From positions 288,001 through 352,000 of the forward strand of contig CAWIMJ010000050.1 in assembly GCA_963837175.1 (NCBI GenBank): a stretch of 64,000 nucleotides of DNA, read 5' to 3'. The position numbers and the translations under genes are program-made. The notes beneath the pieces were generated by a model, which did not search any database, was not told the origin of the DNA, and saw only the letters and a list, made by a program, of their open reading frames with translations. Positions 49,573 through 57,183 of the stretch are shown piece by piece (positions within the stretch are counted from its first letter, which is position 1; every line of letters begins with the position of its first letter). The stretch comes from an uncultured Nitrososphaeraceae archaeon (GTDB lineage Archaea > Thermoproteota > Nitrososphaeria > Nitrososphaerales > Nitrososphaeraceae).

Positions 49573-50649
49573 ATGTCAGATATTATATCATGGGACAAAG
49601 CTATTGACAAAAAAGTAAAGTCAAGTGATAACCAAGATATAGGTAAAGTTCAAAGTATTACAAAGGATTATATTCAAACAAAAGAAGGAACGGTAGCCAA
49701 AAAATATTATTTTATTCCTAAGTATTATTTTCAAGGATATGACGGTGATAATTTATGGGTTTCATTAACCAAAGATCAAATAAAGGCTAAATTTGAGAGA
49801 GAAAAAGAACCTGAGCCTGGTGAGTTACAAACACCCGAGTATGCAGAAAGAAGAACAGCAATTACTAAACAGTATCCTGATTTTGATAGTAATATTCCCC
49901 AATATGCTTCTCCATCTACTTTATCGCCTACGACTTCCTCTACTACTACTGCTGCAGATGACAGTGTTGGTATGCCGTGGGATAAAATTATCGATAAAAA
50001 AGTTAAATCAAGTGACAACCAAGATTTGGGAAAGGTGCAAAGCGTTGCTGCTAATTACATCGAAGCACAAGAAGGCCATCTAAGCAAGAAACGCTACTAT
50101 ATACCTAAACATTATATCCAAGGATTCGACGGCGAGCATTTGCACGCGGCATTAACTAAGGACGAAATAAAAAGTCGTTATGAAAGAGATGCTCCTCCAT
50201 CCGAATCAGAATTTCAGAATCAAGAGAAAACTGAACAAAATCTTCGACAGGGGTCTGCTTCTCCGAAGTCTGTTGAGGGAATACCGTTGATGGCTAAGGA
50301 GCCAGGGCTTGAGCTTCGCGGAGAATATTCAGGTAAATCAGTCAATATTCCATGGGAGGAGGTTATCCATAAACATGTACTCACAAGCGATAACGTTGAC
50401 ATAGGAGAAGTAGATAGAGTAGGAAATGAGTATATAGTAGTTAGAGAAGGTGTGGTAAAGACTCATATCTATTATATTCCAAAAGTTTACATCACCAATT
50501 ATGATGGTAGTACACTTTGGATAAACGCTCCTAGTGGATTAGTAAGTGCTAAATTTGAACGAGAAACAGAGCCAACACCAGAAGACATTAAAAGGCTTGT
50601 AGATGAGGCAAAATCTAAGAGCGGCGCCACAGAGAAGTTTGAAAGCTAA
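49573..50649 (+). CDS. Protein of three PRC-barrel-like repeats
   Basis: W(DK/EE)xIxKxVxxSDNxDxGxV...YYIPKxYxxGxDG occurs three times. Confidence 0.8.
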   Translation: MSDIISWDKAIDKKVKSSDNQDIGKVQSITKDYIQTKEGTVAKKYYFIPKYYFQGYDGDNLWVSLTKDQIKAKFEREKEPEPGELQTPEYAERRTAITKQYPDFDSNIPQYASPSTLSPTTSSTTTAADDSVGMPWDKIIDKKVKSSDNQDLGKVQSVAANYIEAQEGHLSKKRYYIPKHYIQGFDGEHLHAALTKDEIKSRYERDAPPSESEFQNQEKTEQNLRQGSASPKSVEGIPLMAKEPGLELRGEYSGKSVNIPWEEVIHKHVLTSDNVDIGEVDRVGNEYIVVREGVVKTHIYYIPKVYITNYDGSTLWINAPSGLVSAKFERETEPTPEDIKRLVDEAKSKSGATEKFES

Positions 50650-51073: not shown

Positions 51074-51250
51074 TTATTGGGTAAGATCAATAATGCTGTT
51101 TCTGATAATCAATTTTGCCTCTGGCGAAATATTATACCGCTCAAGTACTTTTGTCGGTTCCTTTACAAGTACGTTCCTAAATTCTGGTTCACTAGCAGCT
51201 TTTAGCAGAATTTCGCTAATGACCTCAGCGTCCTTCTGTCGATTATGCAA
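51074..51250 (-). CDS. 58-aa NHLP-leader-like (nitrile-hydratase-type) RiPP precursor candidate
   Basis: Below the ORF-track cutoff. TTG 51250 to TAA 51074: MHNRQKDAEVISEILLKAASEPEFRNVLVKEPTKVLERYNISPEAKLIIRNSIIDLTQ. TTATATAG box about 25-32 nt upstream. Confidence 0.75.
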   Translation of the reverse strand: MHNRQKDAEVISEILLKAASEPEFRNVLVKEPTKVLERYNISPEAKLIIRNSIIDLTQ

Positions 51251-51334
51251 TTAACAAAACGTTTACAAAATCTGCTATATAATCCTAATGCATAATTCGG
51301 AAACTTGATATGAACTAATTTATGGGTTTCATCT
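51251..51334. promoter_or_regulatory. 84-bp divergent promoter region shared by the peptide gene and ycaO
   Basis: Minus-strand TTATATAG (51275-51282) and plus-strand CGGAAA-CTTGATAT (51298-51311), each about 25-30 nt from its start codon. Confidence 0.5.
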
Positions 51335-52660
51335 ATGATTATAGGAGAGTTACGTCTTCAACCGAGGCAGAAATGGACCATTAACGGTACATCGAGAATA
51401 AGCCCTCCTCAAGAAATCCTGAAGAGAATTACTTCTATATCACGAAAGATAGGAGTCACCAGACTTGCTGATATCACTAACATGGATATACTTGGCATTC
51501 CAAATTATTCAGCGGTTCTACCAGGGACTGAAGATTATATATGGGTTTATAGTGGCAAAGGCTCCACTAAGGCTCATGCTAGAGCCAGTGCTCTGATGGA
51601 ATCTATAGAGCGATATTCCTCGCTTCCAAGCGGTGGCCCAAAAAATTTTATCCAAGGCAGCTATGATCAACTATCAAAGTCATTTACAGTTCTTCATCCA
51701 GACAAACTTTTAGAACCAGTTAGATTTCAATATACTAATGACATGCCAATGGATTTTCTTCCTGGTTTTGATCTATTTACAAATGAACAGATATTGGTAC
51801 CGGCATCAATAGCATTATTTCGTTATTCTCCCGTCCCTCCTTTTGTTAATCCCTTTGCATTTCATCATACAAATGGACTTGCATCTGGTAACGTACTAGA
51901 GGAAGCTATTTGTCATTCATTATGTGAGGTGATAGAGCGCGATGCAACCAGTTTGGCTGAACTACGTGCCAGTGCTATCCCTTTTCATTTTTTACGACAC
52001 ATCACAAATACGCTGAAGGCAAAAGGGTATGCGCTAAACTCTATTCCTACAGATAAATATGTGGACGATCCTAATATATTTCCTGATGTAAATATTTCAC
52101 AGATTGAATTTCAACCAGTTAAAGCTTTAGCAAAAAAATTTCTACAATCCAAAATTCCCTTGATTATTAAGGACATTACATCGGACATTGGAATTCCGAC
52201 ATTTAACGCTAGCAGTATCGAATGGATAAGCCATGATTATGGTTATCTTGCCGAAGGGCATGGAACACATCCTGATGCACGTATTGCATTATTGCGTGCT
52301 ATAACAGAGGTATCACAAACTAGAGCCGCTAACATTCAAGGTGCAAGAGATGATCTCCGAAAAATCAAATACGGACAAAACAATACAAATGATAAACGTG
52401 CATGGCAATTTATGCAGTCAGATAAAAACGTAAAATTTTCTGAGATTGCTACGTATTTTAACCAAGATATTCTTGATGATATCAAGTTGATTCTAGAACA
52501 TCTAAAACAGATTGGATTAAAGAGAGCCATCATCGTAAATTTAACTAACGATAGCATTGGAATCCCTGTTGTAAGGGCAGTAGTACCTGGCCTTGAGACT
52601 TTCAAAATCACAAAATCTATCATGGGTTGGCGAGCAAGAAGGTATTTTAAAAATGAATAA
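51335..52660 (+). CDS. ycaO: YcaO-family enzyme, TfuA-associated (thioamide-forming) type
   Basis: GVTRLADIT.MD.LGIP, SGKG....A.ASALMESIER, TNGLASGN..EEA..H.L.EVIERD, RAITEVSQTR, VVRAVVPGLE; no C-terminal PxP. Confidence 0.93.
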   Translation: MIIGELRLQPRQKWTINGTSRISPPQEILKRITSISRKIGVTRLADITNMDILGIPNYSAVLPGTEDYIWVYSGKGSTKAHARASALMESIERYSSLPSGGPKNFIQGSYDQLSKSFTVLHPDKLLEPVRFQYTNDMPMDFLPGFDLFTNEQILVPASIALFRYSPVPPFVNPFAFHHTNGLASGNVLEEAICHSLCEVIERDATSLAELRASAIPFHFLRHITNTLKAKGYALNSIPTDKYVDDPNIFPDVNISQIEFQPVKALAKKFLQSKIPLIIKDITSDIGIPTFNASSIEWISHDYGYLAEGHGTHPDARIALLRAITEVSQTRAANIQGARDDLRKIKYGQNNTNDKRAWQFMQSDKNVKFSEIATYFNQDILDDIKLILEHLKQIGLKRAIIVNLTNDSIGIPVVRAVVPGLETFKITKSIMGWRARRYFKNE

Positions 52661-53318
52661 GCCTATAATATTTCTAGGTCCTAGCCTGAACCACGAGAGA
52701 GCAAGACAAATCTTTCAAGCTGATTTTAGAGGACCCGCAAAAAAGGGCGATCTCTTAAGAATTTCAAGTGTTGTAGATGATACAACGATAGTCTGCCTAG
52801 TAGACGCATTATTTCTCCAAGATTATCCTCCTTCTCCAATAGAAGTCTATCAACTGATGCTAAATAAAAATATAAAACTATTTGGAGCAGCAAGTCTTGG
52901 TGCATTGCGTGCAGTTGAGCTCGAAAAATTTGGAATGATTGGGATCGGAAAAATTTTTGAACTTTATAAGAAAGGCAAACTAACTGCTGATGACGAAGTA
53001 GCAGTTACCTTCACAGAGGGTGAGCACCAACTCCAGTCTGAGGCAATGATAGATATTCGATTTAATTTATTTTTGGCATATAGAAATGGAATAATTAATG
53101 AAATTACAAAAAAAACAGTAGCTAAAGTAGCCAAAAGTATCTATTTTCCATACAGGAATTATATCGATATCCTTGACCAAACAGAAAAGCACTATCCTGC
53201 GATAGCCGACGATCTGAAACTATTTCGAACTTATATTATCAAAAATAGGCAAAGTCTGAAGGAGCGCGATACAATAAAACTAATTAATTATGTAAAGAAG
53301 CTTTTCATTGAATCTTAA
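52653..53318 (+). CDS. tfuA: TfuA-like protein
   Basis: IIFLGPSL, PAKKGD, GAASLGALRAVEL..FGM.G.GKIF, DDEVAV, SEAMIDIR, YFPYR, LKERD; ATG 52653 overlaps the ycaO end by 8 nt. Confidence 0.93.
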   Translation: MNKPIIFLGPSLNHERARQIFQADFRGPAKKGDLLRISSVVDDTTIVCLVDALFLQDYPPSPIEVYQLMLNKNIKLFGAASLGALRAVELEKFGMIGIGKIFELYKKGKLTADDEVAVTFTEGEHQLQSEAMIDIRFNLFLAYRNGIINEITKKTVAKVAKSIYFPYRNYIDILDQTEKHYPAIADDLKLFRTYIIKNRQSLKERDTIKLINYVKKLFIES

Positions 53319-56793: not shown

Positions 56794-57183
56794 ATGAAAA
56801 TGCTTAACAGTATCATCGCTATAGTCGTCATTTCTTTCATGGTGGTTGGCGTGCTTTGGGGAGTAAGCAACATAATTAACCGCCCTGAAGGATCATCATC
56901 AATAAAAAACGTTTCAGGCATTTTGTTAATAGCTCAAAACAATGCATTTAACAATACAAATCCTGATATCTATGCTGCCGTCAATGTACCCGAGAAGCTA
57001 CTAGTAGTCAATAAGGATTTTGTAAGACATGATCTTATTGTAGATGTATTAAAGATTAATACAGCTTATTTGTCTTCTGAGCAGGGTTTTACAACTGCAA
57101 TTGCATCAAAAAAGGCTGGCACATTTGAATACTACTGCTCCTTGCACCCAACCACAATGCGTGGTAAAATAATAGTCAAATAA
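56794..57183 (+). CDS. Membrane-anchored single cupredoxin domain protein
   Basis: N-terminal TM, RHDL, GTFEYYCSLHPTTMRG. Confidence 0.85.
   Translation: MKMLNSIIAIVVISFMVVGVLWGVSNIINRPEGSSSIKNVSGILLIAQNNAFNNTNPDIYAAVNVPEKLLVVNKDFVRHDLIVDVLKINTAYLSSEQGFTTAIASKKAGTFEYYCSLHPTTMRGKIIVK

What the first reader, a model, noticed from the sequence alone, without database searches (positions are those of the whole stretch)
51074..53318. Three-gene archaeal thioamidation locus: ycaO-tfuA plus a hidden divergent NHLP-leader-like peptide
Seen: ycaO and tfuA overlap by 8 nt. Only 84 bp upstream on the other strand lies an unannotated 58-aa ORF, ISEILLKAASEPEFRNVLVKEPTKVLERYNISPEAK. Established: YcaO+TfuA install backbone thioamides on methyl-coenzyme M reductase and on thioviridamide-type RiPPs; nitrile-hydratase-like leaders carry an ll.kA..D.eFR..L..dP..vL signature; ammonia-oxidising archaea lack MCR. 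Inference: the peptide is the substrate or recognition element of this pair, giving a thioamitide-like pathway in an AOA lineage where I know of no characterised product.
Basis: partly seen in the sequence, partly recalled or inferred. Interest (0 to 1): 0.88.

Follow-up and report, generated by a model that had tools for sequence, protein, structure and literature searches.

The report
Small NHLP-like partner of archaeal YcaO-TfuA
Next to the thioamide-forming enzyme pair YcaO-TfuA, soil ammonia-oxidising archaea keep a conserved 58-residue helical protein related to peptide-antibiotic leader domains, which makes it a concrete, testable candidate for what these enzymes act on.

Summary
A 58-aa ORF (51074-51250, minus strand, TTG start) lies 84 bp upstream of ycaO and diverges from it. 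ycaO and tfuA overlap by 8 nt.

The ORF is a real gene under purifying selection. It is present in 118 of 121 genomes of its family and is divergent and adjacent to ycaO in 100 of 121. It was found only in the three families of the order that carry this ycaO type.

It is homologous to the NHLP clan (hhalign 99.1% against Os1348-type proteins). It scores below every curated cut-off and ends six residues after the homologous domain, so there is no core peptide, Gly-Gly site or paralogue. AlphaFold2 models it as fully folded, with four helices.

A co-fold places it on YcaO residues 216-247 (ipSAE 0.82, best control 0.00). That segment is an insertion missing from the M. jannaschii YcaO and from a peptide-less YcaO type in the same order.

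Neighbouring genes are housekeeping, so this is not a thioamitide-like cluster. Best reading: a dedicated YcaO docking partner, most likely a small protein substrate of thioamidation. An activating, non-substrate subunit is the main rival. Nothing here shows a thioamide.

The parts
51074..51250 (-). Gene for a 58-aa small helical protein of the NHLP clan (leader-like domain only); the proposed YcaO partner or substrate
   Evidence: ORF. Purifying selection. 118 of 121 family genomes. hhalign 99.1% against Os1348-type proteins. AF2 pLDDT 90.6 with four helices. Contigs from 4 of 4 RNA libraries overlap it, three of them most of it.
51251..51334 (.). 84-bp divergent intergenic region holding two conserved AT-rich elements. 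A TATATAA box lies at 51276-51282, 26-32 nt upstream of the TTG of the small gene. TTGATATGAAC lies at 51305-51315, 20-30 nt upstream of the ycaO ATG. I infer these are two separate archaeal promoters with short or no leaders.
   Evidence: Sequence. Both elements recur in most of the 22 intergenic regions from the window's own family printed. Their promoter function is inferred and was not tested.
51335..52660 (+). ycaO (441 aa), a TfuA-associated, McrA-thioamidation-like type
   Evidence: PF02624 at 242.7 bits. TIGR03266 at 284.4 bits, below its equivalog cut-off of 365. 120 of 121 family genomes.
51971..52117 (+). Clade-specific insertion of YcaO (residues 213-261: a helix at 215-229 plus a loop). 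It carries the predicted docking surface for the small protein (residues 216-247).
   Evidence: Not aligned to M. jannaschii YcaO 6pe3, which has 15 residues where this protein has 49. Deleted in the peptide-less YcaO of family f12. Interface list. AF2 secondary structure.
52653..53318 (+). tfuA (221 aa from the ATG at 52653), overlapping ycaO by 8 nt
   Evidence: PF07812 at 118.7 bits. NF033432 at 198.3 bits, below its cut-off of 235.2. Follows ycaO in all 34 loci that gave a near-full-length tfuA match.

Best explanation
The locus is a three-gene module that is vertically conserved in three families of ammonia-oxidising archaea. It consists of a small folded protein of the NHLP clan, a YcaO with a lineage-specific insertion, and TfuA.

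Proposed mechanism:
1. The small protein docks as a folded four-helix domain onto the YcaO insertion (residues about 216-247). It uses its invariant A..PEFR motif and its last helix. This would replace the RiPP recognition element that other YcaOs use.
2. YcaO then ATP-activates a backbone amide of the small protein, most likely in or near its family-variable C-terminal tail (residues about 52-58). The co-fold places that tail beside the YcaO C-terminal helix.
3. TfuA supplies sulfide from a thiocarboxylated ThiS-type carrier, giving a thioamide.

The product would be a conserved, probably intracellular, thioamidated mini-protein, not a secreted, leader-cleaved natural product.

Shown here: the gene is real and under selection; clan-level homology; synteny and co-occurrence; the insertion.
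Supported by a model only: binding and the interface.
Inferred: that the small protein is the substrate, the modification site, and the sulfur route.
For: 1. Linkage. The peptide is in 118 of 121 and ycaO in 120 of 121 family genomes. They are adjacent and divergent in 100 of 121.
2. Linkage in other families. In two further families they share a contig and diverge in 8 of 8 (f4) and 7 of 9 (f9) genomes that hold both.
3. Co-occurrence across 201 genomes of the order. Peptide / this ycaO type: f1 40/40 and 40/40, f4 8/9 and 9/9, f9 10/11 and 10/11. Neither was found in f10 (0/40), f13 (0/40) or f15 (0/15).
4. Retention when unlinked. Where linkage is broken (13 of 13 g15 genomes and 1 of 1 g4), both genes are kept, about 0.9-1.0 Mb apart in three single-contig genomes.
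5. Clan homology. The clan's known role is enzyme-docking precursor domains. hhalign gives 99.1%, E 1.3e-18, over 45 columns. The profile finds 281 representatives at E <= 0.001, and 9 of 10 sampled distant ones exceed the NHLP or Os1348 curated cut-offs. PDB profile hits are nitrile hydratase alpha (E 4.9e-7) and the NHLP precursor 9cjx_A (E 1.2e-3).
6. Co-fold. ipSAE 0.82 (runs 0.83, 0.82, 0.81), best of 3 controls 0.00. The runs agree in at least 92% of contacts and the partner's pLDDT is at least 88. In the tool's calibration the mark was reached by 58 of 80 solved complexes and 2 of 110 mismatched pairs. Those counts hold only roughly here because I supplied my own row-matched alignments.
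7. The interface is an insertion. It is absent from M. jannaschii YcaO and from the f12 YcaO, which has no such peptide nearby (f12 peptide hits 1/10, weak, in a 467-aa ORF).
8. No McrA was found and amoA is present, so the known archaeal substrate is missing.
9. ThiS-family genes are present: 3 matches over the cut-off.
10. Precedent in print. NHLP leaders are folded and engage a YcaO by protein-protein contacts (PMC12455567, abstract and the first of two parts of section 4 read). YcaO thioamidates a folded protein, uL16, and enzymes with a static substrate stay conserved (PMC13063428, abstract and Discussion read).
Against: 1. No thioamide, binding or modification was measured. The co-fold is a model.
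2. The listed interface contains no residue of the ATP/Mg motifs (around 85-93 and 198-203), so the pose is a docking pose and is not shown to be catalytically competent.
3. The whole protein, tail included, is modelled as helical at pLDDT 86-95 per 10-residue block after the first (81), so there is no free core.
4. The tail is the least conserved part between families. No conserved residue outside the interface or fold marks a modification site.
5. A mirror-tree test found no peptide-insertion co-variation beyond background: partial r 0.11, and 39% of 300 control windows reach it.
6. The RNA evidence is contigs from RNA libraries, which cannot prove transcription.
Confidence: 0.45

Rival explanations
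1. Non-substrate subunit. The small protein is a leader-only NHLP domain that binds the YcaO insertion in trans. It activates, stabilises or regulates the enzyme, and the true thioamidation substrate is another cellular protein encoded elsewhere.
For: - The protein is fully folded and has no core.
- No homologue is extended at the C-terminus. All 6 of the 10 longer database entries that I read are upstream over-calls ending in the same C-terminus.
- The docking pose lies away from the ATP motifs.
- About 30 of 58 residues are in the interface.
- YcaO-TfuA is near-universal in the family, like a housekeeping function.
- A YcaO paralogue that keeps the insertion but has no peptide gene or tfuA nearby exists in some genomes and could share the small protein.
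- Recalled, not from a call: leader peptides supplied in trans can activate RiPP enzymes.
Against: - No candidate substrate is linked in any of the loci examined.
- No natural leader-only activator is known to me.
- A protein this small has little surface left to recruit a third protein.
- Adjacency to a maturase is the classical signature of a precursor.
Confidence: 0.3
2. Classical RiPP. The 58-aa product is a precursor whose C-terminal residues are thioamidated, cleaved from the NHLP-like leader and released as a thioamitide-like natural product.
For: - NHLP-clan homology.
- Adjacency to YcaO-TfuA.
- The C-terminal tail varies between families.
- A bacterial Os1348-type relative sits directly upstream of a B12-radical-SAM enzyme, the usual precursor arrangement (one locus only).
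Against: - Only about 6 residues follow the domain, and they are modelled as part of helix 4.
- There is no Gly-Gly site.
- The gene is single-copy.
- The tail is nearly invariant (..DLTQ) across most genera of the family.
- No protease, exporter or tailoring gene was found between 43 and 61 kb, and flanks are not conserved.
- The distribution is core-genome-like, not patchy.
Confidence: 0.07
3. Unrelated neighbour. The small helical protein only shares a bidirectional promoter region with ycaO-tfuA, or it is a small DNA-binding regulator of that region.
For: - Each gene seems to have its own promoter element.
- The genes are unlinked in 14 genomes without loss of either.
- The fold searches gave no significant match.
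Against: - The two genes co-occur across three families, and both are missing from the other well-sampled families.
- The co-fold scored 0.82 against 0.00 for controls.
- The predicted contact surface is exactly the clade-specific insertion.
- The protein is homologous to enzyme-docking leader domains.
Confidence: 0.1

Closest known systems
McrA-glycine thioamidation pair YcaO/TfuA of methanogens (TIGR03266 / NF033432; M. jannaschii MJ1094, PDB 6pe3)
   Same: - Best-scoring families for both enzymes.
- Same ycaO-tfuA order, with overlapping genes.
- Nayak et al. 2017 report that homologues from ammonia-oxidising archaea fall in the same YcaO clade (PMC5589413, passage read).
   Different: - Both proteins score below the equivalog cut-offs: 284.4 < 365 and 198.3 < 235.2.
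- No McrA was found in the genome.
- The YcaO has a 49-residue segment where MJ1094 has 15.
- A dedicated small-protein gene accompanies it.
NHLP leaders of proteusin-type precursors, e.g. MprE7 with the YcaO cyclodehydratase MprC (PDB 8tb1; PMC12455567)
   Same: - A folded helical leader-type domain related to nitrile hydratase alpha.
- It engages a YcaO by protein-protein contacts.
- Profile hits to 9cjx_A and 8tb1_A.
- Foldseek TM 0.56 to 8tb1, which is not significant.
   Different: - The paper gives the MprE leaders as 81 aa followed by a core. This protein is 58 aa in total, with no core.
- MprC uses an RRE domain, whereas this YcaO has none and would use an insertion.
- The chemistry would be thioamidation, not azoline formation.
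- 18.2 bits against the TIGR03793 cut-off of 50.9.
Os1348 family NHLP clan proteins (NF038399)
   Same: - Closest family by profile-profile comparison: 99.1%, E 1.3e-18, residues 8-52 against 3-47.
- Closest by language-model features: 0.82, a lead only.
- Shared motif pattern A..DPEFR..L...P...L..Y.(I/L)(S/T).E.K.
   Different: - 17.1 bits against a cut-off of 40.
- The archaeal protein stops at about model position 47-53 of 63 and lacks the variable tails of 10-50 residues seen in the bacterial members.
- The one bacterial locus examined pairs the gene with a B12-radical-SAM enzyme, not a YcaO.
E. coli YcaO thioamidating ribosomal protein uL16 (PMC13063428)
   Same: - A YcaO acting on, or here proposed to act on, a folded, conserved, gene-encoded protein recognised through tertiary structure.
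- Enzyme and partner are both slowly evolving.
- In both cases a co-fold prediction is what pointed to the partner.
   Different: - EcYcaO has no TfuA and uses a TPR domain.
- Its substrate is unlinked and essential.
- The modification was shown by mass spectrometry, whereas here nothing has been measured.
Thioamitide (thioviridamide-type) gene clusters
   Same: YcaO plus TfuA next to a small ORF.
   Different: There is no core peptide. No tailoring, protease or export genes were found. The distribution is conserved and core-genome-like.

Membership tests
NHLP leader peptide family RiPP precursor (TIGR03793) | Score at or above the curated cut-off (50.9 bits) | tested here: not met
   18.2 bits, E 1.7e-3, covering only model positions 3-35 of 77. 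16.3 bits in the genome search. 17 of 19 homologues match at E <= 0.1, best 4.2e-5.
NHLP leader peptide family RiPP precursor (TIGR03793) | Homology to the helical region of nitrile hydratase alpha | tested here: met
   The family profile hits nitrile hydratase alpha chains at E 4.9e-7 to 3e-3 and the NHLP precursor 9cjx_A at 1.2e-3. Distant hits of the profile are bona fide NHLP or Os1348 members in 9 of 10 sampled.
NHLP leader peptide family RiPP precursor (TIGR03793) | A C-terminal core peptide after the leader, classically behind a Gly-Gly-type cleavage site (this feature is recalled, not from a call) | tested here: not met
   The protein ends 6 residues after the homologous region and contains no Gly. 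The 6 of 10 longer database forms that I read are extended only at the N-terminus. The tail is modelled as part of helix 43-57.
NHLP leader peptide family RiPP precursor (TIGR03793) | A gene for a maturation enzyme next to it | tested here: met
   Divergent and adjacent to ycaO-tfuA in 100 of 121 family genomes.
Os1348 family NHLP clan protein (NF038399) | Score at or above the curated cut-off (40 bits) over the 63-position domain | tested here: not met
   17.1 bits over model positions 3-38. Profile-profile homology is nevertheless strong: 99.1%, 45 columns.
Frankia Franean1_4349-type peptide (PF14407) | Score at or above the gathering cut-off (48 bits) | tested here: not met
   13.2 bits, E 0.11.
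YcaO/TfuA backbone-thioamidation pair | A YcaO ATP-dependent domain plus a TfuA gene directly downstream | tested here: met
   PF02624 at 242.7 bits, TIGR00702 at 186.7 bits (above 75.65) and PF07812 at 118.7 bits. 8-nt overlap.
YcaO/TfuA backbone-thioamidation pair | Equivalog-level match to the McrA-glycine thioamidation proteins | tested here: not met
   TIGR03266 at 284.4 bits against 365. NF033432 at 198.3 bits against 235.2.
YcaO/TfuA backbone-thioamidation pair | The known substrate McrA is present | tested here: not met
   No PF02249 match in the genome (91.5% complete). Both methanogen controls matched.
YcaO/TfuA backbone-thioamidation pair | A thioamide is formed on a defined substrate | not testable with these tools
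   This needs mass spectrometry of the small protein (+15.98 Da).
Thioamitide biosynthetic gene cluster | A precursor with a core, plus tailoring, protease or export genes (this list is recalled, not from a call) | tested here: not met
   The neighbours are a nitroreductase, GNAT, nucleoside hydrolase, DUF2171 protein, zinc-ribbon protein, citrate synthase, cupredoxin, PUA protein, proteasome subunit and an HATPase_c_3 protein. Three further ORFs match no family. None is conserved at the locus beyond a few genera.

The most novel reading that the evidence does not exclude
Three families of ammonia-oxidising archaea make a housekeeping thioamidated mini-protein. It would be the third natural protein substrate of YcaO thioamidation, after McrA and uL16, and the first in archaea outside methane metabolism.

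It would be recognised by a new docking mode: a leader-only, folded NHLP-clan domain sitting on a lineage-specific YcaO insertion instead of an RRE.

A bolder extension is pure speculation with no call behind it. Thioamide sulfur is a soft ligand, so the modified protein might serve copper handling in these copper-dependent organisms.
Probability: 0.4. Interest if true: 0.8.

Novelty: new variant of a known kind. Interest (0 to 1): 0.66.

Why it matters
YcaO-TfuA homologues in ammonia-oxidising archaea have been on record since 2017 (PMC5589413), and eight such clusters were counted in 2021 (PMC8120280). In the text I could read, no substrate is named. MCR, the only known archaeal target, was not found in this genome.

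This analysis gives a specific candidate partner that can be cloned, a predicted interface, and a natural negative control: the insertion-less YcaO type. That turns the open question into a one-week co-expression and mass-spectrometry experiment.

If the small protein is modified, protein thioamidation extends to a globally important nitrifier group. It would also show that NHLP-type leader domains can exist as stand-alone proteins. If it is an activating subunit instead, that would be a natural 'leader in trans' system.

Tried and rejected
1. Co-variation test. I compared pairwise distances of the peptide with those of the YcaO insertion, controlling for the rest of YcaO, over 41 genome-matched rows. 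Partial r was 0.11, and 39% of 300 control windows reached it, so there is no specific signal.

2. Fold searches with the small-protein model.
- Foldseek against the PDB gave no hit at E <= 0.001. The best were the DesB C-terminal domain (TM 0.68) and 8tb1 (TM 0.56).
- VIA-align wide gave a best Z of 5.5. Rows included a borosin methyltransferase, LigA (1b4u, Z 5.4), the SonA precursor (9cgw_B, Z 5.1, rmsd 1.4 over 43 residues) and DesB. All are within the noise range the tool states for helical models.
- These are leads only.

3. The sigma-70 promoter and terminator scan is not applicable to archaea and showed no enrichment: 14 sites against 12.2 expected.

4. RNA evidence.
- The run search returned only small shares (0.05-0.20) of the sampled words.
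- I laid four soil metatranscriptome runs from four studies. Contigs span most of the small ORF in three (51075-51230 at the widest), and a fourth covers 51156-51322.
- Scattered pieces of ycaO and tfuA are also covered. Large parts of ycaO and tfuA have no cover, which proves nothing.
- These are contigs from RNA libraries and cannot show strand or transcription.

5. Paralogues in the window's genome: none. The other matches have E 0.33 and 1.27.

6. A phylum-wide sample of 300 further genomes gave only three weak matches (E 4e-5 to 7e-4), in ORFs of 101-128 aa. I did not follow them up.

7. I rejected the thioamitide-cluster reading for the reasons given under rival explanations.

8. Papers.
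- Searches for TfuA/YcaO with 'ammonia-oxidizing archaea', 'Thaumarchaeota' or 'Nitrososphaera', and for thioamide/archaea/NHLP, found no paper describing this small protein.
- The claim 'not in print' rests on these searches only.
- Supplementary tables were closed. Those of PMC8120280 list predicted precursors and may already include this ORF.
- Dong et al. 2019 and Liu et al. 2021 were not held, so I could not read where the McrA peptide binds on the M. jannaschii YcaO.

9. Unpublished genomes.
- G035, G077 and G098 are included in the counts. Without them the counts are 115 of 118, 117 of 118 and 97 of 118.
- G217 gives the single weak f7 hit.
- Locus L016 (from G098) was fetched automatically and printed, but it is in none of the alignments A1-A7.
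Full report
**1. The observation**

One search lists a 58-aa ORF at 51074..51250 on the minus strand with a TTG start. It also lists ycaO at 51335..52660 (441 aa). The longest tfuA frame begins at 52593, but the sequence shows an ATG at 52653.

That ATG is the start supported by homologues: NF033432 aligns to residues 5-216 of the 221-aa form, and tblastn matches of relatives begin at residues 1-7. The ycaO stop is at 52658-52660, so the overlap is 8 nt. The divergent gap is 84 bp.

The genome carries archaeal amoA (393 bits) and gave no McrA match. It is 91.5% complete, and both methanogen controls matched.

**2. The small ORF is a real gene**

- The large protein collection holds 444 proteins of 31-102 aa that match it at E <= 0.01. 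Where they carry a name it is 'hypothetical protein', including two entries from Candidatus Nitrososphaera gargensis. The gene is therefore called by annotation pipelines elsewhere, although nobody has named it.
- Among 23 ungapped homologues, differences fall 3448/2160/8311 on codon positions 1/2/3. In the proposed frame 56% of differing codons are synonymous, against 9% and 4% in the shifted frames.
- The TTG start is supported by position. Relatives in two other families have an ATG at the equivalent place, and most genera of the window's family have a Leu codon there.
- Contigs from four soil metatranscriptome libraries of four studies overlap the ORF. Contigs of relatives in two of them stop matching exactly at the stop codon (loose ends at 51075). 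This fits coding-sequence conservation and is a weak hint of expression. Contigs cannot prove transcription.

**3. What family it belongs to**

Single-sequence scans give only sub-threshold hits:
- TIGR03793 (NHLP): 18.2 bits against a cut-off of 50.9.
- NF038399 (Os1348): 17.1 bits against 40.
- PF14407: 13.2 bits against 48.

The signal is nevertheless consistent. 17 of 19 homologues hit both the NHLP and Os1348 models at E <= 0.1.

A profile of the family finds nitrile hydratase alpha chains (E 4.9e-7 and weaker) and the solved NHLP precursor 9cjx_A (E 1.2e-3) in the PDB. Against 1.84 billion representatives the 44-sequence profile finds 281 proteins at E <= 0.001, of which 35 are at E <= 1e-10. 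Of ten distant hits that I scanned, nine exceed the curated cut-off of NHLP or Os1348.

An hhalign comparison with 23 Os1348-type hits gives 99.1% probability, E 1.3e-18, aligning residues 8-52 with positions 3-47. Clan-level homology is therefore established, while membership in any curated family is not.

The archaeal protein is the leader-like domain alone. It ends six residues after the aligned block and has no Gly. The bacterial relatives carry 10-50 further residues. The ten longer database forms are 103-142 aa. All six that I read are upstream over-calls ending in the same C-terminus.

AlphaFold2 with 44 sequences gives pLDDT 90.6 and four helices (2-20, 22-30, 32-36, 43-57) with no disordered tail. 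Fold searches gave nothing significant.

**4. Linkage and distribution**

In 121 genomes of the family, the peptide is found in 118 and ycaO in 120. The two are adjacent and divergent in 100, with gaps between matched stretches of 84-873 bp and a median of 107.5.

The other 21 genomes are:
- 3 with no peptide match and 1 with no ycaO match.
- 14 where the genes are on different contigs and 3 where they are 0.92-1.0 Mb apart on one contig.
- Of those 17, 14 are all 13 genomes of genus g15 and the only genome of g4. There the genes are truly unlinked, yet both are retained.

In a 201-genome sample of the order:

| Family | Peptide | This ycaO type |
|---|---|---|
| f1 | 40/40 | 40/40 |
| f4 | 8/9 | 9/9 |
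| f9 | 10/11 | 10/11 |
| f10 | 0/40 | 0/40 |
| f13 | 0/40 | 0/40 |
| f15 | 0/15 | 0/15 |

Three f12 genomes (3 of 10) have a more distant ycaO-tfuA (44-46% identity) and no such small protein nearby. The single weak f12 peptide hit lies in a 467-aa ORF on another contig.

In f4 the pair is divergent and adjacent in 8 of 8 genomes that hold both. In f9 it is on the same contig and divergent in 7 of 9. In six of those seven a spacer of 1.0-1.6 kb separates the genes. In the one locus examined, the spacer holds an SBF-family transporter gene.

These are lineages, not independent events, so the co-occurrence amounts to a few gains or losses. A 300-genome sample of other families of the phylum gave three weak hits only.

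Flanking genes are housekeeping: a nucleoside hydrolase, GNAT, DUF2171 repeat protein, citrate synthase, cupredoxin and proteasome subunit. Only the DUF2171 gene recurs, in 11 loci of three genera. The conserved unit is therefore peptide plus ycaO plus tfuA.

**5. The enzyme has a matching insertion**

The M. jannaschii YcaO (PDB 6pe3) aligns to residues 20-212 and 262-434. The window's protein has 49 residues where MJ1094 has 15.

The f12 YcaO, which has no peptide nearby, has a gap of 35-41 columns at the same place. All 41 peptide-associated YcaOs that I aligned carry the segment, including a conserved (F/Y)VDDP motif. AlphaFold2 models it as a helix at 215-229 plus an ordered loop, with pLDDT 78-88.

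**6. Predicted complex**

I co-folded YcaO and the small protein, each given as a 41-row alignment in the same genome order. The result was ipSAE 0.82 (0.83, 0.82, 0.81) against 0.00 for the best of three controls. At least 92% of contacts were shared between runs, and the partner's pLDDT was at least 88.

The tool's verdict is that the model supports binding but does not show it. In its calibration the mark was reached by 58 of 80 solved complexes and 2 of 110 mismatched pairs. Those counts hold only roughly here because the alignments were my own.

- The contact surface on YcaO is 216-220, 222-224, 226-227, 230-235, 237 and 241-247, plus 438-439. Apart from the last two residues, this is the insertion.
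- On the small protein it is residues 4-29 and 45-58. This includes the near-invariant A18 and P22 and the invariant R25, which contact YcaO 219-220 and 242-245.
- No solved complex of this kind is known to me, so a pass from memory seems unlikely.
- No ATP-motif residue is in the list, so the pose shows docking and not catalysis.
- A mirror-tree test for peptide-insertion co-variation was negative.

**7. Mechanism and rivals**

The evidence makes a dedicated physical partnership likely. My estimate is about 0.8 for the substrate, activating-subunit and classical-RiPP readings combined.

Within that, I favour the substrate reading (0.45). The clan's known role is precursor domains that dock on their maturases. 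That role comes from PMC12455567, plus one bacterial Os1348 gene abutting a B12-radical-SAM enzyme. Also, the enzyme lacks its only known archaeal substrate, and the tail lies near the YcaO C-terminal helix that follows the invariant G431 and R433.

The conservation pattern fits the argument in PMC13063428 that YcaOs with a static protein substrate stay conserved. It does not fit a fast-evolving natural product.

The main rival (0.30) is a leader-only activating subunit with the real substrate elsewhere. The absence of a free core and the docking-only pose speak for it.

A cleaved thioamitide-like product (0.07) and an unrelated neighbour or regulator (0.10) are less likely.

TfuA is taken to deliver sulfide from a ThiS-type thiocarboxylate, as summarised in PMC13063428. 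ThiS-family genes are present.

**8. Novelty**

YcaO-TfuA in ammonia oxidisers is already known (PMC5589413, PMC8120280). I did not find three things in any paper searched or as a model in NCBIfam release 20 or Pfam:
- the conserved small NHLP-clan partner;
- its leader-only architecture;
- the matching YcaO insertion.

Supplementary tables that may list it as a predicted precursor were closed. I rate this a new variant of a known kind. Its interest lies mainly in making the function of these enzymes in nitrifying archaea directly testable.

Noticed in passing
L074-L082 (e.g. L074:3158-4540, minus strand): Some genomes of the family carry a second YcaO paralogue (50-63% identical, ORFs of about 457-487 aa). 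In the nine loci fetched, no tfuA and no peptide homologue lies within several kb. In the three I aligned, the paralogue keeps the clade-specific insertion and has an extra Ser-rich segment near residue 360.
   Followed up: partly
L067:3050-4932 (genome G164, family f12): A different, shorter ycaO-tfuA type occurs in 3 of 10 sampled f12 genomes. It is 36% identical to the window's YcaO over the full length (44-46% in the N-terminal half). It lacks the 35-41-residue insertion and has no NHLP-like small gene nearby. It is a natural comparison for binding experiments.
   Followed up: partly
L060:4196-5164 (minus strand), and the equivalent spacers in L061-L065: In one genus of family f9 a spacer of 1.0-1.6 kb separates ycaO from the small gene. 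In L060 it holds a 322-aa SBF-family (sodium/bile-acid-type) transporter gene. The other five spacers were not examined.
   Followed up: partly
window 51305-51315: The element TTGATATGAAC, 20-30 nt upstream of the ycaO start, is nearly invariant across many genera of the family. Family f4 has CATTAATA(A/G)C at the same place. It is conserved far better than the surrounding spacer, so it may be more than a TATA box.
   Followed up: no
window 49573-50649 (+): This 358-aa protein is built of three internal repeats, one of which matches DUF2171 at 53.6 bits. It lies convergent to the small gene and recurs there only in 11 loci of three genera.
   Followed up: partly
L083:7001-9273: In an Anaerolineae MAG, an Os1348-family gene (92 aa) ends where a 665-aa B12-binding radical SAM gene starts. 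The pair is flanked by two large cNMP-binding-domain proteins, one with a weak peptidase M50 match. It looks like an uncharacterised RiPP cluster.
   Followed up: partly
window 56794-57183 (+): A small cupredoxin/plastocyanin-like gene lies 3.5 kb downstream of tfuA. It is not conserved at the locus in other genera, so no link is claimed.
   Followed up: no
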